This document shows, piece by piece, positions 3,637 through 17,994 of a stretch of DNA of 41,214 nucleotides. The translations under genes and the position numbers were made by a program. Source of the DNA: Candidatus Methylomirabilia bacterium (GTDB taxonomy: Bacteria; Methylomirabilota; Methylomirabilia; Rokubacteriales; CSP1-6); the NCBI GenBank assembly GCA_041476345.1, contig JBGOTH010000001.1, positions 1-41,214 of the forward strand. The letters are read 5' to 3'. Numbering within the stretch: position 1 is the stretch's first letter; each line of letters starts with the position of its first letter. Below the pieces are notes generated by a model. It did not search any database. It was given only the letters and a program-made list of their open reading frames with translations, and was not told the origin of the DNA.

Positions 3637-4100
3637 GCGCGGAGGGGAGCGGCGCTCGCGTGGGGTCGTACGGTGAGCACGGGGCACGCCGCCGCGCGAA
3701 CGACGCGATCGGCGACGCTGCCGAGCATGAACCGCTCGAAGCCGCCGCGACCGTGCGTGCCGATGACGATGTACGTGGCCCGTTCCTCCGCCGCCGCCCT
3801 CAGGATCTCCTCGTGAGGGACGCCGACGCGCCGGCGCCAGACCGCCTTCACGCCCTCCTTCACCAGCCGCTGCGCGCGCTCACCGAGCCTCGCCTCCGCC
3901 CAGGCCGCCTGCGTCGCGTAGAGCTTCTCGAGCTCGCCCATGCCGAACGGCGTCTCGCCGTAGAGCGGCGCTTCGACCGACACGTGCAGGAGAATCAGCC
4001 CGGCGCCGAAGCCACGCGCGAGCCGTGCGGCTTCGGCTTCCGCCGCGTCCGCTTCGACCGAAAAATCCGTGGGGTGAAGAATCGTGACCTGGTCAGTCAT
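3633..4100 (-). CDS. universal stress protein (single USP domain)
   Basis: Reads MTDQVTILHPTDFS...ILLHV...ATYIVIGTHGRGGFERFMLGSVADRVVRAAACPVLTV. The ATG at 4100 is preceded by GGAGG. The longer track ORF (to 4526) is an unsupported extension. Confidence 0.9.
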   Translation of the reverse strand: MTDQVTILHPTDFSVEADAAEAEAARLARGFGAGLILLHVSVEAPLYGETPFGMGELEKLYATQAAWAEARLGERAQRLVKEGVKAVWRRRVGVPHEEILRAAAEERATYIVIGTHGRGGFERFMLGSVADRVVRAAACPVLTVRPHASAAPLRA

Positions 4101-4129
4101 GCGCACCTCCATTGCCGTGCGGCGATGGG

Positions 4130-4146
4130 TGCACCGCCAATGCCAG
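4130..4146 (-). promoter_or_regulatory. sigma-54 promoter P2 (USP-glgX operon)
   Basis: The minus strand reads CTGGCATTGGCGGTGCA with GG-N10-GC exact. The predicted leader to the ATG at 4100 is about 19 nt and contains the SD. Confidence 0.65.
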
Positions 4147-4211
4147 ACCGTTGACCACGCAATTCCAACCATTTGAGCGCGGCCGGACCGCCGAGCCGTG
4201 TCCCAGCCGCG

Positions 4212-4240
4212 CCTCGCGTGGGGAGCCGCCACCCCAGTCG
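4212..4240. promoter_or_regulatory. GGGG-N8-CCCC dyad between divergent promoters P2 and P3
   Basis: Reads CCTCGCGTGGGGAGCCGCCACCCCAGTCG. In minus sense it is TGGGG-N8-CCCCACGCGAGG. It lies 54 bp from the P3 GG and 79 bp from the P2 GG. Confidence 0.5.
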
Positions 4241-4284
4241 GTCCGGGAACAGCCGCCTCCGCGACTTGACGCGATTGCAACGTG

Positions 4285-4300
4285 TGGCGTATGCGTTGCA
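4285..4300 (+). promoter_or_regulatory. sigma-54 promoter P3 (LOG-family gene)
   Basis: Reads TGGCGTATGCGTTGCA with GG-N10-GC exact. The leader to the ATG at 4318 would be very short (about 7 nt), which lowers confidence. Confidence 0.55.
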
Positions 4301-4317
4301 CGCGGGTCTCCACATCG

Positions 4318-5091
4318 ATGAAGGACGACAGAAGATCGATCGACACCGGCGCGGACTGGACGACCGCGGCGCATCCCGTCGAGGCCGTCCGCTTTCTCGA
4401 AGGTCCCCAATCGCGCGGCTTCGAGCTTGCCCGCGCGATCCGCATCTTCGTCGAGCTCATGCGCGGGTTCCGCGCGCTGCACTTCGTCGGGCCCTGCGTC
4501 ACCATCTTCGGCTCCGCCCGCTTCAAGGAAGACCATCCCTACTACGCGATCGCGCGCGAGGTCGGCGCCGGAGTCGCGCGCTGCGGGTTCACGGTGATGA
4601 CAGGCGGCGGGCCCGGCATCATGGAGGCGGCCAACCGGGGCGCGCGGGAGGCGGGCGGACGCTCGATCGGCTGCAACATCGAGCTGGCGCTAGAGCAGGA
4701 GCCCAACCCGTATCTCGATCGCTGGATCACCTTCCGCCACTTCTTCGTGCGCAAGCTGATGCTCGTGAAGTACTCGTACGCGTTCATCGCGCTGCCGGGA
4801 GGCTTCGGCACCCTGGACGAGATCTTCGAGACCGCCACGCTGATCCAGACCGGCAAGATCCGTGACTTCCCGCTCATCCTCGTCGGGAGGGACTTCTGGC
4901 GTCCGCTCACCGACTTCCTCCACGGCCCGCTCGAGGCCACGGCTGTCATCGATCCCGCCGACGCCGACCGCATTCGGGTCACGGACTCCGCGGCCGAGGC
5001 CGTGAGCGCCGTGCGCGACATCGCGATGCTGCGCTTCGGGCTGCACTACCCTCGCCCGCGGCGCCTCTGGTTCCTGCGCGAGCGCAGCTAG
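4318..5091 (+). CDS. LOG-family (TIGR00730) nucleotide/cytokinin riboside 5'-monophosphate phosphoribohydrolase-like protein
   Basis: Contains TIFGSARF...MTGGGPGIMEAANRGA...PGGFGTLDEIFE, the LOG PGGxGTxxE signature. The start is taken at ATG 4318. Confidence 0.85.
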   Translation: MKDDRRSIDTGADWTTAAHPVEAVRFLEGPQSRGFELARAIRIFVELMRGFRALHFVGPCVTIFGSARFKEDHPYYAIAREVGAGVARCGFTVMTGGGPGIMEAANRGAREAGGRSIGCNIELALEQEPNPYLDRWITFRHFFVRKLMLVKYSYAFIALPGGFGTLDEIFETATLIQTGKIRDFPLILVGRDFWRPLTDFLHGPLEATAVIDPADADRIRVTDSAAEAVSAVRDIAMLRFGLHYPRPRRLWFLRERS

Positions 5092-5092
5092 G

Positions 5093-5285
5093 TGGATTAT
5101 TCATGAGCGGGGCCGGGAGCGTGCCGCCTCCTGTCCTCGCCGAGGTGAGGGCGGTGGGCCGGGGTGGACGGCCGACATCCGCAGCCGCCTCGGCGAGGAC
5201 AGGAGGCCGTCTACCTCGGCCCACCGCCCTCACCTCGGCTGCGGATGTCGCCGGCACACCCCCGGCCTCGCTCATGAATAATCCA
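5093..5285. repeat. 193-bp MITE-like palindromic element filling the LOG-MFS intergenic space
   Basis: It has perfect 17-bp terminal inverted repeats: TGGATTATTCATGAGCG (5093-5109) and CGCTCATGAATAATCCA (5269-5285). The arm similarity extends to about 33 bp. The interior holds three interleaved inverted-repeat pairs in the order A B C A' B' C'. Confidence 0.6.
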
Positions 5286-5295
5286 GGCTAGCGCC

Positions 5296-6504
5296 GTGCG
5301 CCTGTCCCGCAATCTCTGGGCGGTCAGCGCGGCGAGCTTCTTCATGGACGTCGCGAGCGAGATGACGATGAACCTCGTGCCCCTTCTGCTGAGCAACGTG
5401 CTGGGCGCGAGCACCGCGGTCATCGGTCTGGTGGAAGGCGTCTCGCAGGCGACGGCGAACCTGGTTCAGGTGGGCTCGGGCTGGCTCTCCGATCGGCTGC
5501 GCGCGCGCAAGTGGCTCGCGGTCGCGGGCTATGCGCTGTCCGCCGCGTCGAAGCCGACGCTGTACGTCGCAGACACGTGGGGGCTCGTGCTCGGCGCGCG
5601 ATGGATCGATCGCGTCGGGAAGGGCGTCCGCACGGCGCCTCGGGACGCCCTCGTCGCCGACTCGACGGACCGTCAGCATCACGGCGCGGCGTTCGGGTTT
5701 CAACGCGCCGCCGACACGGCGGGGGCCGTCGTCGGTCTCGGCATCGCGCTGGCCGTGGTCGTCGCCAGCGGAGGGGCATCGGCGTCGCTCGCGCGTGGCA
5801 CGTTTCAGACGATCGCCCTCGTGAGCGTCATCCCGGCCACGCTGGCCGTGCTGTCGCTCGCGGTCGGCGCTCGTGACGTGCCGCCGCCCGCTCCCGACGC
5901 GCGCGCGGGGCCGGGTCGGCTCGACGGGTCGTTCCTCATGTTCGTCGGCATCGTGGCGATCTTCGGTCTCGGCAACGCCTCGGACGCGTTCCTCGTGCTG
6001 CGCGCGCAGGAGCGCGGGCTGCGCGTCGCGGACATCCTCCTCGCTCTCCTCGCGTTCAATGTCGTGTACGCGCTCGTGTCGGCGCCCGCGGGCGCGCTCT
6101 CCGATCGCCTCGGGCGCCGGCGCATGATCGTCGTCGGATGGCTCGTCTACGCGGCGGTGTATTTCGGGTTCGCGCTCGCCCGCGCGCCGTGGCACGTATG
6201 GCTCCTGTACCTGGTCTACGGCGCGTACTACGGCGCCACGTACGGCGTCCTCAAGGCGGCGATCGCGGATCTCGTGCCGGTCGAGCGGCGCGCCACCGCG
6301 TACGGCGTTTACAACACGACCGTCGCGATGGCCAACCTCGCCGCCTCGCTCGTCGCGGGTGTGCTGTGGCAAGGCGTGGGAAGCTGGCCAGGCTTCGGGC
6401 CCTCGGCGCCGTTCCTCTTCGGCGGCACGCTGGCGCTGGCCGCGGCAATCCTTCTGAGCCTCGTACCGACGTGGCCCGACGCGCGCCGAGCGGACATGAT
6501 GTAA
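5296..6504 (+). CDS. MFS transporter
   Basis: 402 aa with about 12 predicted hydrophobic helices and the MFS loop motif GWLSDRLRARK. It is a paralog of the minus-strand MFS at 37636-38829 (similar N-termini). Confidence 0.85.
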   Translation: MRLSRNLWAVSAASFFMDVASEMTMNLVPLLLSNVLGASTAVIGLVEGVSQATANLVQVGSGWLSDRLRARKWLAVAGYALSAASKPTLYVADTWGLVLGARWIDRVGKGVRTAPRDALVADSTDRQHHGAAFGFQRAADTAGAVVGLGIALAVVVASGGASASLARGTFQTIALVSVIPATLAVLSLAVGARDVPPPAPDARAGPGRLDGSFLMFVGIVAIFGLGNASDAFLVLRAQERGLRVADILLALLAFNVVYALVSAPAGALSDRLGRRRMIVVGWLVYAAVYFGFALARAPWHVWLLYLVYGAYYGATYGVLKAAIADLVPVERRATAYGVYNTTVAMANLAASLVAGVLWQGVGSWPGFGPSAPFLFGGTLALAAAILLSLVPTWPDARRADMM

Positions 6505-6517
6505 AGATCGGTGCGCT

Positions 6518-6548
6518 TGGGGGCGGCGGCGCCCCAGGTGAGGTAGCC
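6518..6548. promoter_or_regulatory. GGGG-N8-CCCC+AGGTGAGG dyad upstream of P4
   Basis: Reads TGGGGGCGGCGGCGCCCCAGGTGAGGTAGCC. The CCCC starts 88 bp upstream of the P4 GG. Confidence 0.5.
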
Positions 6549-6619
6549 ACGCCGCTATTCATCGCGCGCTCGGCGCGCGCGCATCCCTCATCTGCGCGAT
6601 TTGTCTCTCGAAGCGCCGG

Positions 6620-6634
6620 GGTATGCCCATTGCA
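6620..6634 (+). promoter_or_regulatory. sigma-54 promoter P4 (Leu/Glu-type dehydrogenase)
   Basis: Reads GGTATGCCCATTGCA with GG-N10-GC exact. The -12 TTGCA is perfect; the -24 is weaker (GGTAT). Confidence 0.55.
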
Positions 6635-6682
6635 TCCGATCCGGCGTATGGGGCTCGACTCTGACCTGAGCGTGCGCGGACG

Positions 6683-7804
6683 ATGAGCCTCGACGACGTT
6701 TTCGACGTTGCGGACGAGCTCGGTCCCTCGAAGATCATCCACGTCAGCGAGCCGACACTCGGGCTCAAAGCGGTGCTGGTCGTCGACAACGTCGCGCGCG
6801 GCCCGTCGATTGGCGGCCTTCGGATGGCGCCTGACGTGAGCACGACCGAGTGCGTCCGTCTCGCGCGGGCGATGACGCTGAAGAACGCCGCCGCCAACCT
6901 GCCTCACGGCGGCGGCAAGTCAGTGCTCTACGGCGACCCGCGCATGCCGCGCGACCGGAAGGAGCGCCTCATTCGCGGGTTCGCGCACGCCCTCCGGAAC
7001 GAGACGGACTACATCTTCGGTCCCGACATGGGCACCGACGAGGCGTGCATGGCGTGGGTCGAGGACGAGATCGGCCGCGCCGTCGGCCTGCCGGCCGCGC
7101 TCGGCGGCATTCCGCTCGACGAGATCGGGGCAACCGGCTGGGGCGTCCTCCACGCGGTGGAGACCGCGGCGTCCCATTGCAGGTTCGACCTCAAGGGCGC
7201 GCGCGTGGTGATCCAGGGCTTCGGGGCCGTCGGCAAGCACAGCGCGCGATTCCTGGTCGAACGCGGCGCGGTGCTCGTCGCGGCATCGGATTCTCGAGGG
7301 ACGATCTACGACCCAGGCGGGATTCGCGTGGCGGAGCTGATCGCGCTGAAGGCCGCCGGCGGCGCCGTCGGAGACTATGCGAGCGGCGGCGAGAAGCTCG
7401 ATCGCGATGCGGTGCTCGATGTGGAATGTGAGATCTGGATCCCTGCCGCCCGCCCCGATGTGGTGCGCGAGGACAACGTGGACCGTTTGAAGACCAGGCT
7501 GGTCGTCCAGGGCGCCAATATTCCATTCACGCCGGGCGCGGAGAAGATGCTGCACGACCGGGGCGTCCTGGTGATTCCCGATTTCATCGCGAACGCCGGC
7601 GGCGTCATCTGCGCCGCGATGGAGTACCACGGCGCGACGCAATCGGCGGCCTTCGCCGCGATCGAGGAGAGAACCCGCGCGAATACCACGGCGGTCCTCG
7701 ACGCGATGAAGGCCGAGAACGTCACGCCGCGTCGGGCCGCGCTCGATCTGGCGACCGCGCGCGTCAGAGAGGCGATGAGCTACCGCCGTTTCTCGATCTC
7801 CTGA
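6683..7804 (+). CDS. Glu/Leu/Phe/Val dehydrogenase family protein (LeuDH/ValDH-sized)
   Basis: 373 aa with GPSIGGLRM, the catalytic-Lys box LPHGGGKSV and the Rossmann motif IQGFGAVGK. Confidence 0.85.
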   Translation: MSLDDVFDVADELGPSKIIHVSEPTLGLKAVLVVDNVARGPSIGGLRMAPDVSTTECVRLARAMTLKNAAANLPHGGGKSVLYGDPRMPRDRKERLIRGFAHALRNETDYIFGPDMGTDEACMAWVEDEIGRAVGLPAALGGIPLDEIGATGWGVLHAVETAASHCRFDLKGARVVIQGFGAVGKHSARFLVERGAVLVAASDSRGTIYDPGGIRVAELIALKAAGGAVGDYASGGEKLDRDAVLDVECEIWIPAARPDVVREDNVDRLKTRLVVQGANIPFTPGAEKMLHDRGVLVIPDFIANAGGVICAAMEYHGATQSAAFAAIEERTRANTTAVLDAMKAENVTPRRAALDLATARVREAMSYRRFSIS

Positions 7805-7814
7805 CGCTACTCGC

Positions 7815-7840
7815 TGGGGCGCGGCGACCCCACGTGAGAC
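7815..7840. promoter_or_regulatory. GGGG-N8-CCCC+ACGTGAGAC dyad upstream of P5
   Basis: Reads TGGGGCGCGGCGACCCCACGTGAGAC. The CCCC starts 100 bp upstream of the P5 GG. A near-identical copy is at 12301-12326. Confidence 0.5.
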
Positions 7841-7926
7841 GTGCACGCAGCACTCGCACGGCTCGGCGTTGTCGCCGTTTCCAGCTCGCACCAAGCAATT
7901 TCGCGGAATTGCCCCGCTCGACTGAT

Positions 7927-7942
7927 TGGCATTGACGATGCA
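7927..7942 (+). promoter_or_regulatory. sigma-54 promoter P5 (PRTase-esterase operon)
   Basis: Reads TGGCATTGACGATGCA with GG-N10-GC exact. The SD AAGGGGGG and the TTG/GTG start at 7969/7972 follow. Confidence 0.65.
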
Positions 7943-7968
7943 CCCATTCCCAGGCGAAAGGGGGGATC

Positions 7969-8631
7969 TTGGTGCGTACCTTCCGCGACCGGCGACAGGC
8001 TGGGCAACTCCTCGCCGCGCATCTCGGCGCTTACGCAGGACGAGATGACGTGATCGTGCTCGCGTTGCCACGGGGTGGCGTTCCGGTTGCGTTCGAAATC
8101 GCCCGTGCGCTCCACGCCCCCCTCGACGTGTTCACGGTGCGCAAGCTCGGCGTGCCGGGCCACGAGGAATGGGGATTCGGTGCCATCGCAACGGGCGGTG
8201 TCAGAGTCCTCGATGACGACCTGGTCGACAGGCTCGGGTTACCCGTGCGCGTCATCGAACACATCACCGACCTCGAGCGTCGTGAGCTCGGACGACGTGA
8301 GCGCGCCTACCGCGGTGATCGACCGGCGCCCGCGGTGACCGGGAAGACAGTCATCGTCGTCGACGACGGGTTGGCGACGGGCGCGTCCATGCGCGCCGCC
8401 GTGCGGGCGCTGCGAGCGCTGCGACCGGCCGCGATCGTCGTGGCCGTACCCACGGGCGCCCGTGAGACGTGCCAGACGCTGCGGTCGGAGGTCGAGGCCC
8501 TCATCTGCGTCTCGATGCCCGAGCCGTTCTACGCCGTCGGATCGCAGTATCGCGACTTTCAGCCGACATCGGACGAGGAGGTGTGTCAGCTGCTCGCCGC
8601 CGCTCGGGACCAGGCGGCCGTTTCCGCATGA
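7969..8631 (+). CDS. phosphoribosyltransferase-family protein
   Basis: Contains F-RDRRQAG..LA..L...VLALPRGGVPVAFEIA and the PRPP loop VIVVDDGLATGAS. This type is commonly paired or fused with a dienelactone hydrolase. Confidence 0.85.
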   Translation: MVRTFRDRRQAGQLLAAHLGAYAGRDDVIVLALPRGGVPVAFEIARALHAPLDVFTVRKLGVPGHEEWGFGAIATGGVRVLDDDLVDRLGLPVRVIEHITDLERRELGRRERAYRGDRPAPAVTGKTVIVVDDGLATGASMRAAVRALRALRPAAIVVAVPTGARETCQTLRSEVEALICVSMPEPFYAVGSQYRDFQPTSDEEVCQLLAAARDQAAVSA

Positions 8632-9974
8632 CGACGAACGGCGAGGACCTCGCGGCGTCCGTGCGGCAGGTCGCCCGGCCGCTCGCGGGGACGCCGCGTG
8701 ATTTCGACCCCGTCATCGCCGCCGTCGATCGCGCGCGCTTCGTCCTCATCGGCGAGGCCTCGCACGGGACGCACGAGTTCTACCGCATCCGCGCCGAGAT
8801 CACGAAGCGGCTCATCCGCGAGTGCGGCTTCGAGGCGGTCGCCGTCGAGGCGGACTGGCCGGATGCCTACCGGATCAACCGGTATGTGCGCGGCGCCGGC
8901 ACGGATCACGATGCGATCGAGGCCCTCGACGACTTCAAGCGCTTTCCTCACTGGATGTGGCGTAACGCCGACGTGCTGGACTTCGTGGGCTGGCTGCGTG
9001 AGCACGACGACGCGTGCACGGATGATGCCCGGAAGGTCGGCTTCTACGGTCTCGACCTCTACAGCCTTCACGCCTCGATGGAGGCGGTGGTCCGTTACCT
9101 CCGGGTCGTCGATCCCGACGCCGCGCGCCGCGCGCAGTCCCGGTACGCGTGCTTCGACCACTTCGGCGGCGACGTCGAGACCTACGCCCGGACGGCGGGG
9201 TTGGGACTCGCCGCGTCGTGCGAGCGCGAGGTGGTGAGCCAGCTCGTCGATCTCCGGCGCTCCGCGTCCGACTACGCGCGCCGCGATGGGCGTGTGGCCG
9301 CGGACGATCTCTTCGTGGCCGAGCAGAATGCGCGCCTGGTGAAGAACGCCGAGGCGTACTACCGCACGATGTTCGGGGGCCACGTCGCGTCGTGGAATCT
9401 CCGCGACCGGCACATGGTCGAGACCCTGGAAGCGCTCGCCGAGCACGTGCAGGCAGCGCGTGGACGGCCCGCGAAGATCGTGGTGTGGGCGCACAACTCG
9501 CATCTCGGCGACGCCCGCGCCACCGAGCTCGGTCAGCGTGGCGAGTTGAACGTGGGTCAGCTCGTGCGTGAGCGCTACGGTCGCGAAGCGCTCCTCGTCG
9601 GCTTCACGACCAACGAAGGCACGGTGACCGCGGCGTCCGACTGGGGCGAGCCCGCCGAGCGCAAGACGGTGCGACCGGCCTTGCCCGGCAGCTACGAATC
9701 CATCTTCCACGCCGTGGGCCTGGGGAACTTCGCGCTGGACCTGCGCCATCACGGTCTCGCGAGCTCAGCGCTGGCGTCGCCACGACTCGAGCGCGCGATT
9801 GGTGTCGTGTACCGGCCGGAGACGGAGCGGCAGAGCCACTACTTCGACGCCGTGCTCCCGCGCCAGTTCGATCTGGTTTTACACTACGACCACACGCGCG
9901 CCGTCGAGCCGCTCGAGCGCACGGCCCAGTGGGAACGCGGCGAGTTGCCGGAAACATATCCGTCCTCGCTGTGA
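8628..9974 (+). CDS. erythromycin esterase-like (PF05139-type) protein
   Basis: The start is taken at ATG 8628 (ATGA overlap with the PRTase stop). Contains FVLIGEASHGTHEFY...AVEADWPD...VVWAHNSHLGD. Confidence 0.8.
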   Translation: MTTNGEDLAASVRQVARPLAGTPRDFDPVIAAVDRARFVLIGEASHGTHEFYRIRAEITKRLIRECGFEAVAVEADWPDAYRINRYVRGAGTDHDAIEALDDFKRFPHWMWRNADVLDFVGWLREHDDACTDDARKVGFYGLDLYSLHASMEAVVRYLRVVDPDAARRAQSRYACFDHFGGDVETYARTAGLGLAASCEREVVSQLVDLRRSASDYARRDGRVAADDLFVAEQNARLVKNAEAYYRTMFGGHVASWNLRDRHMVETLEALAEHVQAARGRPAKIVVWAHNSHLGDARATELGQRGELNVGQLVRERYGREALLVGFTTNEGTVTAASDWGEPAERKTVRPALPGSYESIFHAVGLGNFALDLRHHGLASSALASPRLERAIGVVYRPETERQSHYFDAVLPRQFDLVLHYDHTRAVEPLERTAQWERGELPETYPSSL

Positions 9975-9981
9975 CGCGACG

Positions 9982-10071
9982 ATGAATTCCCTCGCGATCC
10001 CCTTGGGAGAATGTCACAGGTGATCGCGGCATCGTCCTGTTCGCTCACGGCAGCGGCAGCAGCCGCTTGAG
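9982..10071 (+). pseudogene. dienelactone-hydrolase gene remnant (5' scrap only)
   Basis: 10022-10071 matches the intact DLH gene at 12766-12815 in 48 of 50 nt (encoding GDRGIVLFAHGSGSSRL). The stop/start junction 9963-9985 matches 12654-12676 in 21 of 23 nt. The ATG at 9982 runs into a stop at 10021-10023, and about 53 nt are missing relative to the intact copy. Nothing DLH-like follows 10071. Confidence 0.8.
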
Positions 10072-10368
10072 GAGCGCGCGCCGACGCTGCACATCGACCC
10101 GGATGCGCTTGGCTTCGCGCTCGGCACGCCGTTCCAGCGCGGCCGCCGGCGCCTGGCTCAGCTCGGCCGCTCCCCGCCCGCGCGATGTCCCATGGAGCGC
10201 CCGCGCACATCAGCACACGAGTGCGGCGATCAGGGATCTTCGTCGTACTGGCGTTTTCATGGCGCCCACGAACGTACCGGACGAAGAAGGAGGACCGCGT
10301 ACGGTGACACTGCCGCGCCGTGAGGCGATCCGCACCGGCTCTCCTTCCCAGATCCGGCCTGCGGTTCA

Positions 10369-10785
10369 TCATCGACCGTTCTCCTTGGTGAACGTTCCGC
10401 CGGGAAGATCCGTCACGGTGATCTTCAGCGCGACCATCCGCGCGCCCTCGTTGCGGCACTCGATGGTGACGTAGTCCCCGACGTAGACTCCGGAGCGATC
10501 GAGCGGCGCTTCGACGAACTCGCCGGGGAATCCTTCCCCGGTGTCCTCGACCCGGAACGCGATGGCACATTCCGTCCGTGTCGTGAGCGCGATCCTTGGG
10601 CGCGTGACGACCGTGGCGCCGTCGTGAATCCGCCACGGCCCGACCTCCGCGAGCACGATCGAGTCGGTGTTCTCGTCGTCGTCCACGATGGTGCCGGAAT
10701 GCTTCACGATCTCGGCGCGCGCGGACACGGTGACGGTCAGCAGCAACGTGAGGGTCATACCGAGCACGAGTGCATGTGAGCGCAT
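10369..10785 (-). CDS. secreted hypothetical protein (signal peptide)
   Basis: The N-terminus MRSHALVLGMTLTLLLTVTVSARA is signal-peptide-like. Composition is non-Arg-rich and protein-like. It is last in the minus-strand operon after DUF2267. Confidence 0.65.
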   Translation of the reverse strand: MRSHALVLGMTLTLLLTVTVSARAEIVKHSGTIVDDDENTDSIVLAEVGPWRIHDGATVVTRPRIALTTRTECAIAFRVEDTGEGFPGEFVEAPLDRSGVYVGDYVTIECRNEGARMVALKITVTDLPGGTFTKENGR

Positions 10786-10800
10786 CGTCGTCGTCCTTCC

Positions 10801-11202
10801 TCAGGCGGCCTGTTGCGCGGTCGCCCAGACCGCTTTGAGGTCTTTCGGGAGCTGCGCGAGGATGTCGTCCGACTCGCCGGGCGAGAGCTGCTCCTTGAGC
10901 GCCGCGAAGACCGCGAGCGTGGCATCGCGCGCCTCGCGCTCGGATCCGAGGCCGGCATCGAGGCGGATGCGAGCATAGAACTCGCGGCGGTGCATGCGCA
11001 CGGGGCGTTGATCGACGTCGTGGCCGAAGTCCCACACACGCTTCAGGGGACGCGGGAGCTGCGCACGCGCCTGGCGCGCCTCGCCCGACGTCAAGCGATC
11101 GCGGAGCGCCTGCAACACGGCGGCGGTGACGGCATGAACCTTCGAACGGTCGTCGAGCTCCAGAGTCTCGGCGACGAGGTCGTAGAAGACGTTGGCGTTC
11201 AA
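10801..11202 (-). CDS. DUF2267-domain protein (two repeats)
   Basis: It has two repeats of the DUF2267 pattern: A..AVLQALRDRLTSGEARQARAQLPRPLKRVW and ATLAVFAALKEQLSPGESDDILAQLPKDLKAVW. Confidence 0.8.
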   Translation of the reverse strand: MNANVFYDLVAETLELDDRSKVHAVTAAVLQALRDRLTSGEARQARAQLPRPLKRVWDFGHDVDQRPVRMHRREFYARIRLDAGLGSEREARDATLAVFAALKEQLSPGESDDILAQLPKDLKAVWATAQQAA

Positions 11203-11210
11203 CGCGTGCT

Positions 11211-11330
11211 TCAGGCCGCCGCCAGCTCGCGCTCAGCGTCCAGCGGCGCCGTGATGACCTGTCGTGACTCGCCGAAGTAGTCGATCAGCTGGTCGATCGT
11301 GCGGGGACGATCCGTCTTGAACAGCACCAT
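11211..11330 (-). CDS. 39-aa ORF (MVLFKTDRPRTIDQLIDYFGESRQVITAPLDAERELAAA), first gene of the DUF2267 operon
   Basis: A strong SD, AAGGAGGG, lies 6 nt upstream of the ATG at 11330. It sits directly downstream of sigma-54 promoter P6. I recognise no family. Confidence 0.5.
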   Translation of the reverse strand: MVLFKTDRPRTIDQLIDYFGESRQVITAPLDAERELAAA

Positions 11331-11370
11331 CGCGTTCCCTCCTTCTCCGTGATGACTCCGGTTCGAGATC

Positions 11371-11385
11371 GCAACGGCGATGCCA
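11371..11385 (-). promoter_or_regulatory. sigma-54 promoter P6 (39-aa ORF/DUF2267/secreted protein operon)
   Basis: The minus strand reads (C)TGGCATCGCCGTTGC(G) with GG-N10-GC exact. The leader is about 29 nt. Confidence 0.65.
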
Positions 11386-11436
11386 GACCCGGCCCGAGCG
11401 AAATCACACCGTTGGGCGGACCCGTGCGCGTTCGGT

Positions 11437-11458
11437 GAGGCACGCGTGCCCCAGTGCG
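11437..11458. promoter_or_regulatory. degenerate dyad (GAGG-N8-CCCC+AGTGCG) near P6
   Basis: Reads GAGGCACGCGTGCCCCAGTGCG and lies 56 bp from the P6 GG. A CCTCAC word at about 11470 forms an inverted repeat with GTGAGG at 11435-11440. Confidence 0.35.
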
Positions 11459-11500
11459 GCAGCGTCACCTCACGCTCAAGAGTCGCGCGGACATGAAAGA

Positions 11501-11530
11501 GGTGAAGCTCACCCCAGGTGAGGCAGCCAC
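11501..11530. promoter_or_regulatory. CCCCAGGTGAGGCAGCCAC element upstream of P7 (left half replaced by GGTGA-AGC-TCACC)
   Basis: Reads GGTGAAGCTCACCCCAGGTGAGGCAGCCAC. The CCCC starts 88 bp upstream of the P7 GG. It is collinear with the P4 copy at a constant offset of 4980 nt. Confidence 0.45.
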
Positions 11531-11598
11531 GCCGCTGGTGATCGCGCCGTCGACGCGGGGCGTCTTCTCATCTGCGCGATTTGTCTCACGCGGCACCC

Positions 11599-11614
11599 AG
11601 GCAGGCCTGTTGCA
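11599..11614 (+). promoter_or_regulatory. sigma-54 promoter P7 (CDF-like transporter)
   Basis: Reads AGGCAGGCCTGTTGCA with GG-N10-GC exact. The leader to the ATG at 11644 is about 19 nt. Confidence 0.6.
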
Positions 11615-11643
11615 CTCCATGGGGACATGACGATTCACGGCTG

Positions 11644-12282
11644 ATGCCGATCCTCGAAACGGAAGGTCTCACGCGACCCGAGCATCACCACATCGAGGCG
11701 CCCCGCGTCGCCATCGCCCTTGCGATCACTCTCCTCGCCGCCGCCGGGGAGCTGGCAGGCGCGCGCAGTGCGGGCAGCCTGTTTCTCACCGCCGACGCCG
11801 TGCACCTCGTCGCCCATATCGGCATCTTCGCCGTCCTCCTGATTCCGCGCGGTCGATGGCATGGCGCCGAGGAAGACGTGGCGACGGCCGGTGTCCTCGC
11901 GCTCGTCGCGCTGATCGCCACGGCAATCACCGCCGCCTCGATCAATGCCGTGCTCTTCGCCAACCACGGCGCGCCCGCGCCGGCCTTCCTCTTGCTGTCC
12001 CTCCTCGGGCTCGGCGCGAACGTCGCGACCGCCTGGCTGTTTCGGACCCCCGCCGCATCCCGCTGGTCATTTCGTGCGGCGCTCGCTCACGAGCTCGCCG
12101 ATGGAATGATCACTGTCGCGGGACTCGCCGGCGCGCTGCTCATCAGACTCTTTGGGTGGTGGTGGATCGACCCGGGTCTGTCGCTCGCGATCGGGGTATG
12201 GCTCGACGTCTGGGCGCTCCGCCTCGTCCGACTCCGAATCCGGCACGGGGCGAGCGCGTGGACGATCGACGACGGCGTCTGA
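11644..12282 (+). CDS. cation diffusion facilitator (CDF)-like membrane protein lacking the cytosolic C-terminal domain
   Basis: 212 aa with 5-6 hydrophobic helices. CDF-like metal-site motifs TADAVHLVAH and AHELADG are present. The start is taken at ATG 11644, because track start 11581 lies inside the promoter. Confidence 0.6.
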   Translation: MPILETEGLTRPEHHHIEAPRVAIALAITLLAAAGELAGARSAGSLFLTADAVHLVAHIGIFAVLLIPRGRWHGAEEDVATAGVLALVALIATAITAASINAVLFANHGAPAPAFLLLSLLGLGANVATAWLFRTPAASRWSFRAALAHELADGMITVAGLAGALLIRLFGWWWIDPGLSLAIGVWLDVWALRLVRLRIRHGASAWTIDDGV

Positions 12283-12300
12283 GACGTCGGGCGCTCGCGT

Positions 12301-12326
12301 TGGGGCGCAATGACCCCACGTGAGAC
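12301..12326. promoter_or_regulatory. GGGG-N8-CCCC+ACGTGAGAC dyad upstream of P8
   Basis: Reads TGGGGCGCAATGACCCCACGTGAGAC. The CCCC starts 98 bp upstream of the P8 GG. It is a duplicate of 7815-7840. Confidence 0.5.
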
Positions 12327-12410
12327 GCGGGCGCAACACTCGTGCGGATCGGCCTCTCACACCTTCCGGCGCACGTCACGCGGTTTTGCCCAATTACGCG
12401 GGTAACCGCG

Positions 12411-12426
12411 TGGCATTAACGATGCA
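12411..12426 (+). promoter_or_regulatory. sigma-54 promoter P8 (DLH / Cys-rich / FAAL / MFS operon)
   Basis: Reads TGGCATTAACGATGCA, 15 of 16 nt identical to P5, with GG-N10-GC exact. The SD AAGGGGG and the ATG at 12454 follow. Confidence 0.65.
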
Positions 12427-12453
12427 CCTCCCTGCGGCGCAAGGGGGCGCGAT

Positions 12454-12665
12454 ATGGACGCACTCGTCGGCATCGCCAGATCCGGGTACATCGAGGGACG
12501 GCAACGTCGGGAGCGTGCGCTGGATTTCGCAGGTGTCGCCTTCGGCGTGGGATTGGGCACGGCGCTATGGCTCATCCTCGCGGCGGTCGCTCGCCTCATC
12601 GGATGACACCGGTGGCGTTCGAGGTCGCTCGTGCGGAAAGACGGTCATCGACATCCTCGCTGTGA
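12454..12665 (+). pseudogene. collapsed remnant of a PRTase + esterase gene pair
   Basis: The start context is homologous to the PRTase start. 12609-12635 matches PRTase 8083-8109 in 23 of 27 nt (PVAFE[VI]ARA). 12636-12653 matches 8341-8358 in 15 of 18 nt (GKTVI). 12654-12665 matches the esterase end (SSL-stop). About 2 kb has been reduced to about 210 nt, spread over different frames. A 50-codon ORF (12454-12606) with a TM-like tail is open here but may be fortuitous. Confidence 0.65.
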
Positions 12666-12672
12666 GACGACG

Positions 12673-13347
12673 ATGACCCCTCTCCCGTACGCCGCCGACG
12701 TCCCGGAAGTCGAGATCCCTGCGGACGATGTCTCCCTTCACGGAAACCTCGCGACCCGGCCGGGCGATCGCGGCATCGTCCTGTTCGCGCACGGGAGCGG
12801 CAGCAGCCGCTTGAGCGGTCGCAATCGTTACGTCGCGCGCGCGCTCGAGAACGCGGGGTTCTCGACCCTGCTCTTCGATCTCCTGACGAGGGACGAGGAG
12901 CGCGTGGACGAGATGACGCGCGCGTTGCGGTTCGACATCGAGATGCTCGCGCGCCGCCTCGTCGCCGTCACGGACTGGATCTCGGCGCGGCCGGACACGC
13001 GACACATGTCCGTCGGCTATTTCGGAGCCAGCACGGGCGCGGCCGCCGCGCTGATCGCCGCCGCCGAACGCCCGGGGGTCGTGGCCGCCGTCGTGTCGCG
13101 CGGAGGACGTCCCGATCTTGCCGCGCGTGCGCTTCGGAACGTGAAGGCGCCGACGCTGCTCATCGTCGGGAGTCTCGACGTGCCGGTCATCGCGATGAAC
13201 CGGAGCGCGCTCGACGCGCTCACCACCGAGAAAAAACTGGAGATCGTGGCGGGTGCCAGCCATCTCTTCGAGGAGCCTGGAACACTGCAGATCGTCGCCC
13301 GTCTCGCGAGCGACTGGTTCCACCGACACCTGGGCGTTCCACGATGA
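12673..13347 (+). CDS. dienelactone hydrolase-family alpha/beta hydrolase
   Basis: Contains GIVLFAHGSGSSRLS.RN, the nucleophile elbow GYFGASTGAAAA, and VVSRGGRPDLA...LLIVGSLD...GASHLFEEPG. The start is taken at ATG 12673. Confidence 0.85.
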   Translation: MTPLPYAADVPEVEIPADDVSLHGNLATRPGDRGIVLFAHGSGSSRLSGRNRYVARALENAGFSTLLFDLLTRDEERVDEMTRALRFDIEMLARRLVAVTDWISARPDTRHMSVGYFGASTGAAAALIAAAERPGVVAAVVSRGGRPDLAARALRNVKAPTLLIVGSLDVPVIAMNRSALDALTTEKKLEIVAGASHLFEEPGTLQIVARLASDWFHRHLGVPR

Positions 13348-13625
13348 GCTACACCTGCGGCCATCCCGAGCGGGCGCACGTGGGCGGTGGACGCTGCCGT
13401 GTTCCCGATTGTCCGTGCGAGCGGGTCGAGCCGGGCGACACCATCGCGCGGGAGTTTGCCGTCACCAGTGCCCACACTCCGGCGCATGTCGAGCGCGCGG
13501 TGATCCCCATGCTGAAGAACTCCACCTATGACCTCATGGAAACCGCCGCCGTCCTCTCGAAGGGTCGGCACGACCTCAAGGCGCACTTCGCCGGCGAAGG
13601 CGACGTGAAGATCGCCGCTTCCTAG
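13344..13625 (+). CDS. 93-aa chimeric ORF: Cys/His-rich N-terminal module fused to a Kbl C-terminal fragment plus an unknown tail
   Basis: ATGA overlap with the DLH stop. The third codon position is strongly G/C. Nt 13344-13445 are roughly 80% identical to the small ORF at 18105-18206. 13470-13503 matches the kbl 3' end 21626-21659 in 30 of 34 nt (AHTPAH[VL]ERAV). Confidence 0.6.
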   Translation: MSYTCGHPERAHVGGGRCRVPDCPCERVEPGDTIAREFAVTSAHTPAHVERAVIPMLKNSTYDLMETAAVLSKGRHDLKAHFAGEGDVKIAAS

Positions 13626-13641
13626 TCACCCACGGCGCGTC

Positions 13642-16491
<2,850 letters not shown>

Positions 16492-16494
16492 GCC

Positions 16495-17811
16495 GTGGAC
16501 GATCGGCGCCGAGCACGCGTCGGCTGGTATTTCTATGACTTCGCCAACTCCGCCTTCTCCACCACGGTCATCACGGTGTTCCTCGGACCCCACCTGACTG
16601 CCGTGACGCGGGCGGCGGCCGATGCGGAAGGATTCGTCCATCCGCTGGGTCTCTCGCTCCACGCCGGATCGTTCTTCCCGTACGTCGTCTCGCTCTCCGT
16701 CGCCCTCCAGGCACTCGTGCTCCCCTCGCTCGGAGCGATGGCCGACCATTCGCGTCGCAAGAAGCAGATGCTCGGAGTCTTCGCGTACCTCGGCGCCTGC
16801 ACGACCATGGCCCTCTACTTCGTGCGCGCGCCGGACTACGTGCTCGGTGGAGTCCTGTGCGTCATCGCCAACCTGAGTTTCGGGGCGTCAGTGGTCTTCT
16901 ACAACGCGCTCCTCGCGGACGTCGCGGCGCCGGATGAGCGTGATGCGGTCTCTTCGCGAGGCTGGGCGCTCGGCTACCTCGGGGGCGGATTGCTGCTTGC
17001 CATGAATTTCGGCCTCGTGTCCCGCGCGCCGGCGCTCGGGCTTACTGGCGACCAGGCGACGCGTATCAGCCTCGCCTCCGCCGGCCTCTGGTGGGCGCTG
17101 TTCACGCTCGTCCCGATGCTGACCTTGCGGAGCACCGAGCCGGCCACGCCGTTGCCGCCTCACGCGCGCTCTCTCACCGCCGGCTTTACACAGCTCGCGC
17201 TGACCGTGCGCTCCTTGCGGAAGCAGCCGCGCACCCTGCTCTTCCTCGTCGCCTACCTCCTCTACAACGACGGGATCCAGACGGTCGTGACGCTCTCGTC
17301 TCAGTTCGGCCACGAGGAGCTTGGACTGTCGATGGCGACCCTCGCCGGCGTGATCCTCATGGTGCAGTTCGTCGCGCTGCTGGGGTCGCTGGCATTCGAG
17401 CAGGTCGCACGGGTATCGGGCGCCAAGGGCGCGATCATCATTGCGCTCCTCGGGTGGACGGGCGCGCTCGTGTACGTGTACGCGCTGCTGAGGACGCCCG
17501 GCGAGTTCGTGGGGCTGGCCGTCGTCATCGCGCTGGTGCTCGGCGGCAGCCAGGCCCTCAGCCGATCGCTCTACTCGCTGATGATCCCGCACGGCTACGA
17601 GGCCCGATATTTCAGTCTCTACGAGGTGAGCGATCGGGGGACGAGCTGGCTCGGACCGCTCGTCTTCGGCCTGTCGCTTCAATTCTCCGGTAGCTACCGC
17701 GTGGCCCTTCTCTCGCTCGTGGTCTTCTTCGCCGCCGGCCTACTCCTCCTGGCGCGGGTCGACGTCCGGCGCGCCATCGCCGAGGCCACAAACCCTGCCA
17801 ACGTGCCGTGA
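16495..17811 (+). CDS. MFS transporter, UMF1/Atg22-like family
   Basis: The N-terminus WYFYDFANSAFSTTVITVFLGPHL is typical of UMF1. About 12 hydrophobic helices. It starts 4 nt after the FAAL-LPLAT stop. Confidence 0.8.
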   Translation: MDDRRRARVGWYFYDFANSAFSTTVITVFLGPHLTAVTRAAADAEGFVHPLGLSLHAGSFFPYVVSLSVALQALVLPSLGAMADHSRRKKQMLGVFAYLGACTTMALYFVRAPDYVLGGVLCVIANLSFGASVVFYNALLADVAAPDERDAVSSRGWALGYLGGGLLLAMNFGLVSRAPALGLTGDQATRISLASAGLWWALFTLVPMLTLRSTEPATPLPPHARSLTAGFTQLALTVRSLRKQPRTLLFLVAYLLYNDGIQTVVTLSSQFGHEELGLSMATLAGVILMVQFVALLGSLAFEQVARVSGAKGAIIIALLGWTGALVYVYALLRTPGEFVGLAVVIALVLGGSQALSRSLYSLMIPHGYEARYFSLYEVSDRGTSWLGPLVFGLSLQFSGSYRVALLSLVVFFAAGLLLLARVDVRRAIAEATNPANVP

Positions 17812-17867
17812 TGCTGCGCACCATTTCCGCGGCGGCGGTCGGCCAGCGCGGCCCGGGATGGTGCGGC

Positions 17868-17907
17868 GACGCCTCACCCGGGGCAACCGTGCCCCGGGTG
17901 AGGCGTC
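17868..17907. promoter_or_regulatory. perfect 40-nt palindrome: full-symmetry version of the regulon dyad and/or intrinsic terminator stem
   Basis: Reads GACGCCTCACCCGGGG-CAACCGTG-CCCCGGGTGAGGCGTC, with 16-bp perfect arms and an 8-nt centre. It lies 57 nt after the MFS stop and 58 bp upstream of the P11 GG. No T-tract follows. Confidence 0.55.
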
Positions 17908-17948
17908 AGCTCTTCGGGCCAAGCCTGTGTTCACGCGTACTTCTGGAT

Positions 17949-17964
17949 CGGTCTCGCTCTTGCT
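17949..17964 (+). promoter_or_regulatory. possible sigma-54 promoter P11 (CBS-fragment/Cys-rich/baeRF1/tdh/kbl/ATPase operon)
   Basis: Reads CGGTCTCGCTCTTGCT with GG-N10-GC exact and a perfect -12 TTGCT, but the -24 has only the GG. The leader to the ATG at 17995 is about 20 nt and carries a GGGAG SD. Confidence 0.35.
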
Positions 17965-17994
17965 CAGGATCTGGCTCGCGCGCGGGAGTCAGCG

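What the first reader, a model, noticed from the sequence alone, without database searches (positions are those of the whole stretch)
7811..13347. Duplicated promoter-PRTase-esterase-DLH operon with reciprocal deletional decay
Copy 1 (7811-10071) keeps the dyad, P5, an intact PRTase and an intact esterase-like gene. Its DLH gene is reduced to a roughly 90-nt scrap: 10022-10071 equals 12766-12815 in 48 of 50 nt, with about 53 nt deleted after the ATG and everything after SSRL lost. Copy 2 (12297-13347) keeps the dyad, P8 (15 of 16 nt identical to P5), the SD and an intact DLH. Its PRTase and esterase genes are collapsed to about 210 nt. 12609-12635 equals 8083-8109 in 23 of 27 nt, 12636-12653 equals 8341-8358 in 15 of 18 nt, and the esterase stop/DLH start junction 12654-12676 equals 9963-9985 in 21 of 23 nt. 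Between the two loci exactly one functional copy of each gene survives. This is a clean example of subfunction partitioning by deletion, and it leaves the DLH driving a new downstream operon (Cys-rich ORF, FAAL-LPLAT, MFS).
Basis: seen in the sequence. Interest (0 to 1): 0.7.

Follow-up and report, generated by a model that had tools for sequence, protein, structure and literature searches.

The report
Two operon copies, complementary gene loss
A soil bacterium (probably Methylomirabilota) carries two diverged copies of a stress operon (small ORF, phosphoribosyltransferase, esterase, hydrolase) 4.5 kb apart, each of which has lost the genes the other keeps; the scars are real, but this is ordinary genome evolution, not a new mechanism.

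Summary
Formal alignment confirms the shared 160-nt promoter region, the 50-nt hydrolase (DLH) scrap after the esterase (48/50) and a collinear chain of PRTase and esterase scraps in front of the intact DLH (chain score 32-36 against a null of 12-15). Four other assemblies at 99.7-99.9% identity span the junctions, which argues against an assembly chimera.

Relatives show the undeleted state: sORF-PRTase-esterase-DLH (L084, L095, L091) and esterase-DLH-FAAL/LPLAT-baeRF (L085).

The interpretation needs three corrections.
- The two copies are not recent duplicates. The scrap matches the DLH of the nearest relative L085 (82/88, shared 27-nt indel). The surviving DLH is a deeper lineage (dS 0.41 against 0.13 for the adjacent FAAL; the esterase and DLH trees disagree). 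The best reading is that a second, divergent copy plus about 2.2 kb of other genes landed inside the native DLH, and the redundant genes were then deleted.
- Most of the "210-nt collapse" is a conserved 50-codon small membrane ORF that copy 1 has lost. Only about 70 nt are PRTase and esterase remnants.
- The DLH-FAAL linkage is ancestral, not new.

P5 and P8 belong to eight sigma-54-like promoter motifs in the window. Interest is modest.

The parts
7816..7841 (+). Copy 1 upstream dyad/UAS-like element (GGGGCGCGGCGACCCC-ACGTGAGACG), part of cassette A1 (7805-7964)
   Evidence: Exact 16-mer shared with 12312-12327. The CCCCASGTGAG motif occurs 8 times in the window against 1.8 expected. Conserved in L084, L093 and L095.
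7927..7942 (+). P5: sigma-54-like -24/-12 motif TGGCATTGACGATGCA, 27 nt upstream of the PRTase start
   Evidence: It is one of 8 intergenic matches, all 18-49 nt upstream of same-strand starts.
7969..8631 (+). Intact phosphoribosyltransferase (220 aa), copy 1
   Evidence: Pfam PF00156. Full length compared with L084, L087 and L095. dN/dS 0.21 vs L084.
8628..9974 (+). Intact erythromycin-esterase-family gene (448 aa), copy 1; its start overlaps the PRTase stop (ATGA)
   Evidence: Pfam PF05139, E 9e-137. 94% nt identity to L085 over the last 483 nt. dN/dS ~0.15.
9982..10071 (+). Remnant of the native DLH gene (start codon to ...GSGSSRL); carries a 1-nt insertion and a 27-nt deletion; homology ends at 10071
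   Evidence: 82/88 to the L085 DLH with the shared 27-nt N-terminal indel. 50/53 to 12763-12815.
10072..12291 (.). Intervening block absent from L085: ~300 nt non-coding, P138 secreted-protein gene (10369-10785, -), DUF2267 (10801-11202, -), 39-aa ORF (11211-11330, -), sigma-54-like P6 (11370-11385, -), cassette B2 with P7 (11512-11614, +), cation-efflux gene (11644-12282, +)
   Evidence: L085 goes straight from esterase through DLH to FAAL.
12302..12327 (+). Copy 2 upstream dyad/UAS-like element, part of cassette A2 (12292-12447)
12411..12426 (+). P8: sigma-54-like motif TGGCATTAACGATGCA, 28 nt upstream of sORF50
   Evidence: 15/16 identical to P5.
12454..12606 (+). sORF50: conserved small single-TM ORF (C-terminus ...LWLILAAVARLIG*), kept in copy 2 and deleted from copy 1 (7944-7970)
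   Evidence: 54% aa identity to L084 sORF45 (E 8e-15). Homologous to L095 sORF75 and to the C-terminus of the 168-aa gene upstream of the PRTase in L087/L088. L003 carries a 1-nt insertion at 12465.
12603..12672 (+). Collapsed PRTase and esterase: PRTase start region + PVAFEVARA piece (12609-12633 ~ 8083-8107), GKTVI piece (12634-12650 ~ 8340-8356), esterase last codons/stop/spacer (12651-12672 ~ 9960-9981). It forms a 20-codon open frame from the ATGA overlap with sORF50 to the native esterase stop.
12673..13347 (+). Intact DLH (224 aa), copy 2; a divergent lineage relative to the scrap
   Evidence: Pfam PF01738. dN/dS 0.18-0.28. dS 0.40-0.52 to all relatives. Tree incongruence with the esterase.
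13344..13625 (+). Cys-rich ORF (93 aa), chimeric: the first 34 codons are a paralogue of the Cys sORF at 18105-18257; 13462-13501 is a scrap of an aminotransferase 3' end (~21618-21657)
   Evidence: (85/103 and 33/40). L092 has DLH followed directly by a 42-aa Cys sORF.
13699..17811 (+). FAAL-ACP-LPLAT fusion gene (to 16491) and ATG22-type MFS gene (16495-17811). The FAAL gene is orthologous to the gene that directly follows DLH in L085.
   Evidence: 94.5% nt; dS 0.134.

Best explanation
The lineage originally carried one long stress-island operon of the type seen in relatives: [UAS + sigma-54-like promoter A]-sORF-PRTase-esterase-DLH-FAAL/LPLAT-...-Cys sORF-baeRF-epimerase-aminotransferase.

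A block of about 3.6 kb (10072 to ~13690) then became inserted into the native DLH, about 90 nt into the gene in the present sequence. The block replaced the rest of that gene. It carried unrelated island genes (P138, DUF2267, a cation-efflux gene). It also carried a second, already divergent copy of the same operon: cassette A2, sORF, PRTase, esterase, DLH, Cys sORF and apparently further genes up to an aminotransferase.

The insertion destroyed the native DLH, so the incoming DLH became the only one and was kept under purifying selection. The incoming PRTase and esterase were redundant and were removed by short-homology deletions, leaving about 70 nt of ordered scars. The incoming baeRF-to-aminotransferase genes were probably removed in the same way. 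Copy 1 separately lost the small ORF.

The outcome is two transcription units with near-identical promoter cassettes:
- A1 -> PRTase-esterase
- A2 -> sORF-DLH-Cys ORF-FAAL/LPLAT-MFS

Shown: homology of all the pieces, their order, complementary retention, the ancestral arrangements in relatives, and the deeper divergence of copy 2.

Inferred: the direction and order of events (insertion, then loss), the source of copy 2 (a second locus in the same genome, or DNA from a related species), and sigma-54 dependence of the promoters.
For: - The identities and the collinear chain are statistically supported.
- Four other assemblies share the junctions.
- L084 and L095 have GDH-A-sORF-PRTase-esterase-DLH intact. 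Window segments 6509-7943, 7971-9996 and 12654-13343 map collinearly onto L084.
- L085 has esterase-DLH-FAAL-Cys-baeRF contiguous, at 94-96% nt to the window on both sides of the block.
- The same-strand PRT-EST-DLH triad is seen in about 30 of 80 loci from several phyla.
- The scrap is closest to the L085 DLH (82/88, one shared 27-nt indel), against 75/88 with extra gaps to the window's own DLH.
- The esterase tree groups the window with L085 and L092 (472/500). The DLH tree does not (13/500).
- dS for DLH window-L085 is 0.41. It is 0.13 for FAAL and 0.17 for DLH between L085 and L092. Distances to the outgroup L087 give no sign of rate acceleration (73.9% for the window against 73.9-75.5% for the others).
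- The copy-2 junction, the 53-mer and cassette A2 each carry private changes relative to copy 1, L084 and L085.
- The sORF is conserved in relatives and kept only in copy 2.
- The Cys ORF contains an aminotransferase 3' scrap, which suggests further collapsed genes at the right end of the block.
Against: - No relative with an undecayed copy 2 (cation-efflux gene-A2-sORF-PRTase-esterase-DLH(II)) was found, so the donor arrangement is inferred.
- No remnant of the 3' part of the native DLH lies between 13502 and 13690, so a further deletion or a two-ended replacement has to be assumed.
- No mobile-element gene, tRNA or target duplication marks the block.
- The scrap comparison rests on 88 sites.
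- The DLH tree is star-like apart from the L085/L092 pair.
- The relatives are metagenome contigs from unknown genomes, some of them short.
- Whether the rest of this genome holds further PRTase, esterase or DLH copies is unknown.
Confidence: 0.65

Rival explanations
1. An in-situ duplication of promoter-PRTase-esterase-DLH arose within this genome, and independent deletions then removed DLH from copy 1 and PRTase plus esterase from copy 2 (reciprocal decay of two sister copies).
For: Complementary retention and deletion scars are real. Both copies lie 4.5 kb apart on the same strand. Cassettes A1 and A2 are homologous well beyond the shared motifs. An old duplication that predates the split from L085, followed by loss of copy 2 in L085, cannot be formally excluded.
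Against: The scrap is closer to the DLH of L085, L092 and L095 than to copy 2. dS of the copy-2 DLH to L085 is three times that of the flanking FAAL. The esterase and DLH trees are incongruent. L085, L084, L091, L092 and L095 all show a single intact operon with no trace of a second copy. The block between the copies holds unrelated genes. The model would need a precise deletion in L085 from the DLH stop to the FAAL ribosome-binding site.
Confidence: 0.22
2. The similarity reflects only shared regulatory motifs of one regulon (UAS plus sigma-54-like promoter) together with a strongly conserved DLH motif. On this view there is no homologous second operon.
For: The dyad motif and the -24/-12 motif recur at 6-8 other places in the window. 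The 53-nt DLH segment is unusually conserved among all relatives (50-51/53).
Against: A1 and A2 align over 160 nt, far beyond the motifs, whereas A and B cassettes share only the motifs. The scrap lies exactly where DLH starts in relatives, 8 nt after the esterase stop, and includes the start codon and N-terminus. The PRTase and esterase pieces are collinear and significant. Copy 2 keeps the sORF that precedes the PRTase in relatives.
Confidence: 0.03
3. Assembly chimera: two strain variants or two loci were joined wrongly in a metagenome-assembled contig.
For: The window comes from a metagenome-derived assembly. Repeats of 50-160 nt could mislead an assembler. L093, a 1.7-kb contig, shows a suspicious esterase/aminotransferase fusion.
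Against: Five assemblies (the window, L001, L002, L003 and L094), from NCBI, Logan and JGI sources, agree base for base across the junctions. The repeats are diverged (70-96%) and short relative to read length.
Confidence: 0.03

Closest known systems
Reciprocal (complementary) gene loss after duplication, as described for whole-genome and segmental duplicates
   Same: Two homologous multi-gene copies exist. Each gene is retained in only one copy. The lost copies are visible as pseudogene remnants.
   Different: Here the unit is a bacterial operon. The copies are of unequal age or origin (paralogue or xenologue). One loss is most likely the insertion event itself. No partition of subfunctions within a gene is involved, so it is not DDC subfunctionalisation.
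In-situ xenologous/paralogous gene displacement in bacterial operons
   Same: The native DLH is replaced functionally by a divergent homologue at essentially the same place in the operon. The esterase and DLH trees are incongruent.
   Different: The displaced gene's 5' end and the incoming operon's redundant genes are still visible as scars. The incoming copy also brought its own promoter cassette and split the operon in two.
PRTase / erythromycin-esterase / DLH module of dormancy-type regulons (M. tuberculosis Rv2030c = PRTase + erythromycin-esterase domains, PMC4410610; Rv0571c, a putative PRTase listed among dormancy-associated genes, PMC5309233)
   Same: The same protein families are linked. 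The neighbours are of the stress or dormancy type: USP, BON, DUF2267, CBS, P-type ATPase. The triad is conserved as an operon in many phyla.
   Different: Here the genes are separate rather than fused, and the promoters are sigma-54-like rather than DosR boxes. The biochemical function of the module is unknown in both systems.
Sigma-54 (RpoN) promoters with upstream activator sites
   Same: TGGCA-N7-TGCA with GG-N10-GC spacing lies 18-49 nt upstream of eight gene starts. A conserved dyad lies ~100 nt upstream.
   Different: No rpoN gene or enhancer-binding-protein gene is in the window, and no transcription start data exist. The motif is absent upstream of the PRTase in other phyla.

Membership tests
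Duplicated operon with reciprocal gene loss | Two copies homologous over promoter and several genes, in the same order | tested here: met
   A1/A2 are ~70% identical over 162 columns. The junction, the DLH 5' end and the PRTase/esterase pieces are collinear.
Duplicated operon with reciprocal gene loss | Each gene is intact in exactly one copy | tested here: met
   tblastn of PRT, EST, DLH and sORF50 against the window finds one full copy of each plus the scraps. The intact genes have dN/dS of 0.15-0.28. The rest of the genome was not available.
Duplicated operon with reciprocal gene loss | The copies are sister lineages arising from a duplication within this genome | tested here: not met
   The scrap groups with the L085-type DLH. 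The copy-2 DLH lies outside the clade defined by the esterase, with dS 0.41 against 0.13.
DDC subfunctionalisation | Subfunctions (regulatory or coding) of one gene are partitioned between two retained duplicates | tested here: not met
   No gene is retained in two copies. Whole genes are lost, and the promoter cassettes are near-identical in their motifs.
Sigma-54-dependent promoter | -24 GG and -12 GC elements with the canonical spacing, close upstream of the gene | tested here: met
   TGGCATTGACGATGCA and TGGCATTAACGATGCA. 8 of 16 window matches fall in the 13% of the window that is intergenic, all in the correct orientation and 18-49 nt from a start.
Sigma-54-dependent promoter | The genome encodes RpoN and a cognate enhancer-binding protein; transcription starts downstream of the -12 element | not testable with these tools
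   Neither gene is in the window. No transcript data are available.
Pfam PF00156 / PF05139 / PF01738 (PRTase, erythromycin esterase, DLH) | Score above the curated gathering threshold over the full domain | tested here: met
   60.6, 456.9 and 40.2 bits against cut-offs of 26.3, 26.4 and 21.
Assembly chimera | The junctions are not reproduced in independent assemblies | tested here: not met
   L001, L002, L003 and L094 reproduce them at 99.7-99.9%. Read mapping was not possible.

The most novel reading that the evidence does not exclude
The ~160-nt UAS + sigma-54-like promoter cassettes (A, B and relatives), repeated through this dormancy-type island, may act as portable modules and recombination substrates. 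They would move genes or whole operon segments between island copies and split long operons into separately activated units. Selection might then preserve an unbroken chain of translationally coupled reading frames (sORF50 -ATGA- 20-codon PRTase/esterase remnant -7 nt- DLH -ATGA- Cys ORF) through the deletion scars. Repeated deletion endpoints at the aminotransferase 3' end (window 13462 and L093) would then mark a hotspot or a further cassette.
Probability: 0.12. Interest if true: 0.55.

Novelty: new member of a known kind. Interest (0 to 1): 0.3.

Why it matters
This is a well-preserved example of how bacterial operons are remodelled, and it can be dated against relatives. A second, divergent operon copy lands in the first, and redundancy is resolved gene by gene through short-homology deletions. 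One long operon becomes two units under twin promoters. Both ancestral states survive in relatives, so the order of events can be reconstructed, which is rarely possible.

The locus also has practical value. It flags a conserved four-gene module of unknown biochemistry (small TM ORF, PRTase, erythromycin-esterase-like protein, DLH) that recurs across phyla and in mycobacterial dormancy-associated genes. It also flags a probable sigma-54-type stress regulon in Methylomirabilota-like soil bacteria. It does not reveal a new kind of system.

Tried and rejected
- **Rfam:** a gathering-threshold scan of the whole window gave no RNA family, so cassettes A and B are not known riboswitches or sRNAs.
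- **Sigma-70 promoters and terminators (7700-13800):** nothing above the shuffled expectation. The scrap is not an obvious terminator.
- **Sigma-54-like motif upstream of the PRTase in 60 related loci:** present only in the window's own lineage and L084, so cross-phylum conservation cannot support it.
- **Exact-pattern scan of metagenome contigs for the dyad:** gave one short contig, L093. No relative with an undecayed copy 2 was found.
- **Pfam on short peptides:** nothing for the minus-strand 55-codon open frame overlapping the scrap (10045-10209), the tail of the Cys ORF, P138, sORF50 or the Cys sORF.
- **Could L085's arrangement derive from a window-like one?** Recombination between the two 53-nt repeats would do it. 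Rejected because L085's DLH would then be orthologous to copy 2 (dS ~0.13 expected, 0.41 observed).
- **Recent gene conversion as the cause of 96% identity in the scrap:** rejected. The same 53 nt are 50-51/53 identical in all relatives, and copy 2 carries the private changes.
- **Literature searches for the three-gene combination:** no paper describes it as an operon.
- **MAFFT local-pair alignment of the scrap:** misleading because of the long gaps. It was replaced by pairwise global alignment with cheap gap extension.

Full report
**1. What is in the window**

The window is 68-70% G+C. Its closest esterase relative in the genome collection is a Candidatus Methylomirabilota MAG (L004, 83% aa). 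The organism is therefore probably a soil member of that phylum, though this was not shown directly.

Codon-position G+C and Pfam give this gene map around the finding:
- BON, GlgX, USP, LOG and MFS genes
- GDH (6683-7804)
- PRTase (7969-8631) and erythromycin-esterase family gene (8628-9974)
- on the minus strand: a 138-aa secreted protein (P138), DUF2267 and a 39-aa ORF
- cation-efflux gene (11644-12282)
- a 50-codon ORF (12454-12606) and DLH (12673-13347)
- a Cys-rich 93-aa ORF
- FAAL-ACP-LPLAT (13699-16491) and an ATG22-type MFS (16495-17811)
- a second Cys sORF, baeRF, epimerase, aminotransferase and a P-type ATPase

This is a stress or dormancy-type island. In M. tuberculosis the PRTase and erythromycin-esterase domains are fused in Rv2030c (PMC4410610). 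Rv0571c, a putative PRTase, is listed among dormancy-associated genes (PMC5309233).

**2. Checking the observation**

BLASTN of 7750-10150 against 12250-13400 reproduces every stated identity:
- 10022-10071 vs 12766-12815 is 48/50 (E 1.7e-19).
- 7805-7964 vs 12292-12447 is ~70% over 162 columns (E 4e-19), with an exact 16-mer.
- P5 and P8 match at 15/16.
- 9963-9985 vs 12654-12676 is 21/23.

The two PRTase pieces are not significant alone, so I tested them as a collinear chain with a spliced local alignment. For 12600-12676 against 7965-9985 the score is 32-36. The null is 12-15 (sd ~2), and 0/300 shuffles and 0/50 other window segments reach the observed score. For the unselected 12448-12653 the result is weaker (2/300 at the strictest jump cost). 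The traceback gives 12609-12633 ~ 8083-8107 (21/25), 12634-12650 ~ 8340-8356 (15/17) and 12651-12676 ~ 9960-9985 (22/26).

**3. Not an assembly artefact**

Exact-protein look-ups retrieved four other assemblies of the same population:
- L001 (NCBI GCA_041491405.1, equal to window 3205-19974)
- L002 and L003 (Logan assemblies of SRR35959915 and SRR35959781)
- L094 (JGI 3300053057, equal to window 12465-21878)

They are 99.7-99.9% identical to the window and collinear across both junctions. None has a difference inside the scraps. Read-level support could not be examined.

**4. The ancestral arrangement exists**

A scan of one genome per species with the esterase returned 80 loci. About 30 of them carry PRTase-esterase-DLH on one strand in that order. 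They come from Gemmatimonadota, Acidobacteriota, Methylomirabilota, Planctomycetota and Verrucomicrobiota. Pyrinomonadaceae and others have DLH-PRTase-esterase instead.

The closest DLH homologues (80-84% aa) all sit 8 nt behind an esterase:
- L084: cassette B-GDH-cassette A-sORF45-PRTase-esterase-DLH
- L095: GDH-CarS-A-sORF75-PRTase-esterase-DLH
- L091: PRTase-esterase-DLH
- L092: esterase-DLH-Cys sORF
- L085: esterase-DLH-FAAL/LPLAT-Cys sORF-baeRF-epimerase

Window segments 6509-7943, 7971-9996 and 12654-13343 map collinearly onto L084 at 84-87%. L085 matches the window at 90-96% on both sides of the region between the scrap and FAAL. Relative to L085 the window therefore has extra DNA from 10072 to about 13690.

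**5. The 'collapsed 210 nt' is mostly a conserved small ORF**

The three-way alignment of L084, copy 1 and copy 2 shows that L084 has a 45-codon ORF between the promoter and the PRTase. Window 12454-12606 is its homologue: 54% aa, E 8e-15, with a conserved C-terminal TM segment ending ...RLIG*. The same element occurs as a 75-codon ORF in L095 and as the C-terminus of a 168-aa gene in L087/L088.

Copy 1 has lost about 150 nt here and joins the sORF's Shine-Dalgarno region to the PRTase start.

In copy 2 the PRTase start region (CCGGTG) is joined directly to GCGTTCGAGG..., the PVAFE motif. A GGTG microhomology lies at that junction, and the nearby PRTase sequence carries a GCGTTC direct repeat. 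Only about 70 nt (12603-12672) are PRTase and esterase remnants. These still form a 20-codon open frame that starts at the ATGA overlap with sORF50 and ends at the native esterase stop. That could be chance.

**6. The two copies are not recent sisters**

Several lines of evidence agree.
- In the multiple alignment the scrap shares a 27-nt shorter N-terminus with L085's intact DLH. It then has one private 27-nt deletion and a 1-nt insertion.
- Pairwise global alignments give scrap vs L085 82/88 with that single long gap. Scrap vs L092 is also 82/88 and vs L095 82/89, but these need additional long gaps. Scrap vs the window's own DLH is 75/88 with three gaps, and vs L084 74/88.
- In the junction and the 53-mer, copy 2 carries the private substitutions. 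Copy 1, L084 and L085 agree with each other.
- Neighbour-joining bootstraps place the window's esterase with L085 and L092 (472/500). The window's DLH groups with them in only 13/500.
- Synonymous divergence of DLH window-L085 is 0.41 and window-L092 0.40. For DLH between L085 and L092 it is 0.17, and for the adjacent FAAL window-L085 it is 0.13.
- Distances to the outgroup L087 show no acceleration in the window's DLH.

The surviving DLH is under purifying selection (dN/dS 0.18-0.28).

Hence the scrap is the remnant of the native DLH, and the intact DLH belongs to a lineage that separated before the window, L085 and L092 diverged. The opposite derivation would have L085 arising from a window-like state by recombination between the 53-nt repeats. 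It is rejected because it predicts dS ~0.13 for DLH.

**7. The right end of the block**

The Cys-rich ORF after DLH begins as a paralogue of the Cys sORF at 18105 (85/103 nt). L092 shows DLH followed directly by such a sORF. The window's version continues into a 40-nt scrap of an aminotransferase 3' end (13462-13501 ~ 21618-21657, 33/40).

This suggests that the incoming copy once extended through Cys sORF-baeRF-epimerase-aminotransferase and collapsed there too. The inference rests on 40 nt. No remnant of the native DLH 3' half was found between 13502 and 13690.

**8. The promoters**

The pattern [TAG]GG[CT][AG]-N6-[ATG]TGC[AG] matches 16 times in the window. Eight matches are in the 13% of the window that is intergenic. 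They have the GG-N10-GC spacing of sigma-54 promoters.

The motif CCCCASGTGAG occurs 8 times against 1.8 expected. About 85-100 nt upstream of the four promoters P4, P5, P7 and P8 it lies as part of the A and B cassettes. It also forms a palindromic pair upstream of the second Cys sORF.

A second cassette type, B (6532-6634 and 11512-11614, ~80-85% identity), precedes GDH and the cation-efflux gene.

Sigma-54 dependence is an inference from motif and geometry. No rpoN or activator gene is in the window, and the motif is lineage-specific. A1 and A2 are homologous far beyond these motifs, so regulon membership alone does not explain their similarity.

**9. Most likely history**

- *Shown:* the homologies, the complementary retention, the ancestral states and the deeper divergence of copy 2.
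- *Inferred:* a ~3.6-kb block was inserted into the native DLH. It carried P138, DUF2267, the cation-efflux gene and a divergent copy of the operon. The incoming DLH then became indispensable. The incoming PRTase and esterase, and probably baeRF to the aminotransferase, were deleted. Copy 1 lost the sORF.
- *Unknown:* the source of the block. No mobile-element genes flank it.

**10. Verdict**

The finding is real and well observed. It is wrong on the age and relationship of the copies, on the content of the 210-nt region, on the novelty of the DLH-FAAL linkage and on the term subfunctionalisation. It is a clear example of a known evolutionary process rather than a new system.

Noticed in passing
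window 6532-6634 and 11512-11614: A second repeated regulatory cassette (B1/B2, ~80-85% identical). It has the UAS-like motif CCCCAGGTGAG and a sigma-54-like motif (6619-6634, 11599-11614). It sits upstream of GDH and of the cation-efflux gene, which are unrelated. The pattern B-gene-A-operon therefore occurs twice.
   Followed up: partly
window 1382-1397(-), 4130-4145(-), 4285-4300(+), 6619-6634(+), 7927-7942(+), 11370-11385(-), 11599-11614(+), 12411-12426(+); UAS motif also at 4213-4223(-) and 17873-17902: Eight sigma-54-like -24/-12 motifs lie 18-49 nt upstream of gene starts. A CCCCASGTGAG motif occurs 8 times against 1.8 expected, including a palindromic pair upstream of the Cys sORF-baeRF operon. 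Together they look like one island-wide regulon. No activator gene is in the window.
   Followed up: partly
window 13344-13625, 18105-18257, 21618-21657: The Cys-rich 93-aa ORF is a chimera. It joins a conserved zinc-ribbon-like sORF (CxC..H..CxxxxCxC, about 42-50 aa in L085, L092 and at 18105) to a 40-nt scrap of an aminotransferase 3' end. The sORF family has no Pfam match.
   Followed up: partly
L093 (Ga0315281_10321519), whole 1685-nt contig: A 92%-identical relative in which GDH-A-PRTase is followed by the first ~27 esterase codons. These are fused directly to the last ~27 codons of the aminotransferase (window 21622-21696). It is either a >12-kb deletion or a chimeric short contig. The endpoint is within a few nt of the aminotransferase scrap boundary in the window.
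   Followed up: partly
window 6653-6681: 29 nt between promoter P4 and the GDH start are absent from the otherwise 99.7%-identical L001, which changes the called GDH start (375 vs 373 aa).
   Followed up: no
window 12465 (L003) and 10345 (L002, L003): L003 has a 1-nt insertion in codon 4 of sORF50. L002 and L003 share a 1-nt insertion at 10345. These are strain variants or assembly errors. The first would frameshift the small ORF.
   Followed up: no
window 16524-17783: The ATG22-type MFS gene between FAAL/LPLAT and the Cys sORF is absent from L085, which is otherwise 91-96% identical on both sides. This is another presence/absence polymorphism in the island.
   Followed up: no
window 10045-10209 (-): A 55-codon stop-free stretch with coding-like GC3 (0.82) lies on the minus strand and ends inside the DLH scrap. 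It has no start codon, no Pfam match and no homologue in the fetched loci. It may be a remnant of another gene.
   Followed up: partly
L004 11347-12752 vs window 26023-27428: In the closest species-level genome (Methylomirabilota SMAG_U3913), homology to the window ends at the esterase stop. The next gene is the Na/sulfate symporter that lies 16 kb away in the window. GDH is inverted there. The island is heavily rearranged between relatives.
   Followed up: partly
window 28984-37362 (+): A very large ORF (2792 aa) with coding-like composition. It was not examined.
   Followed up: no
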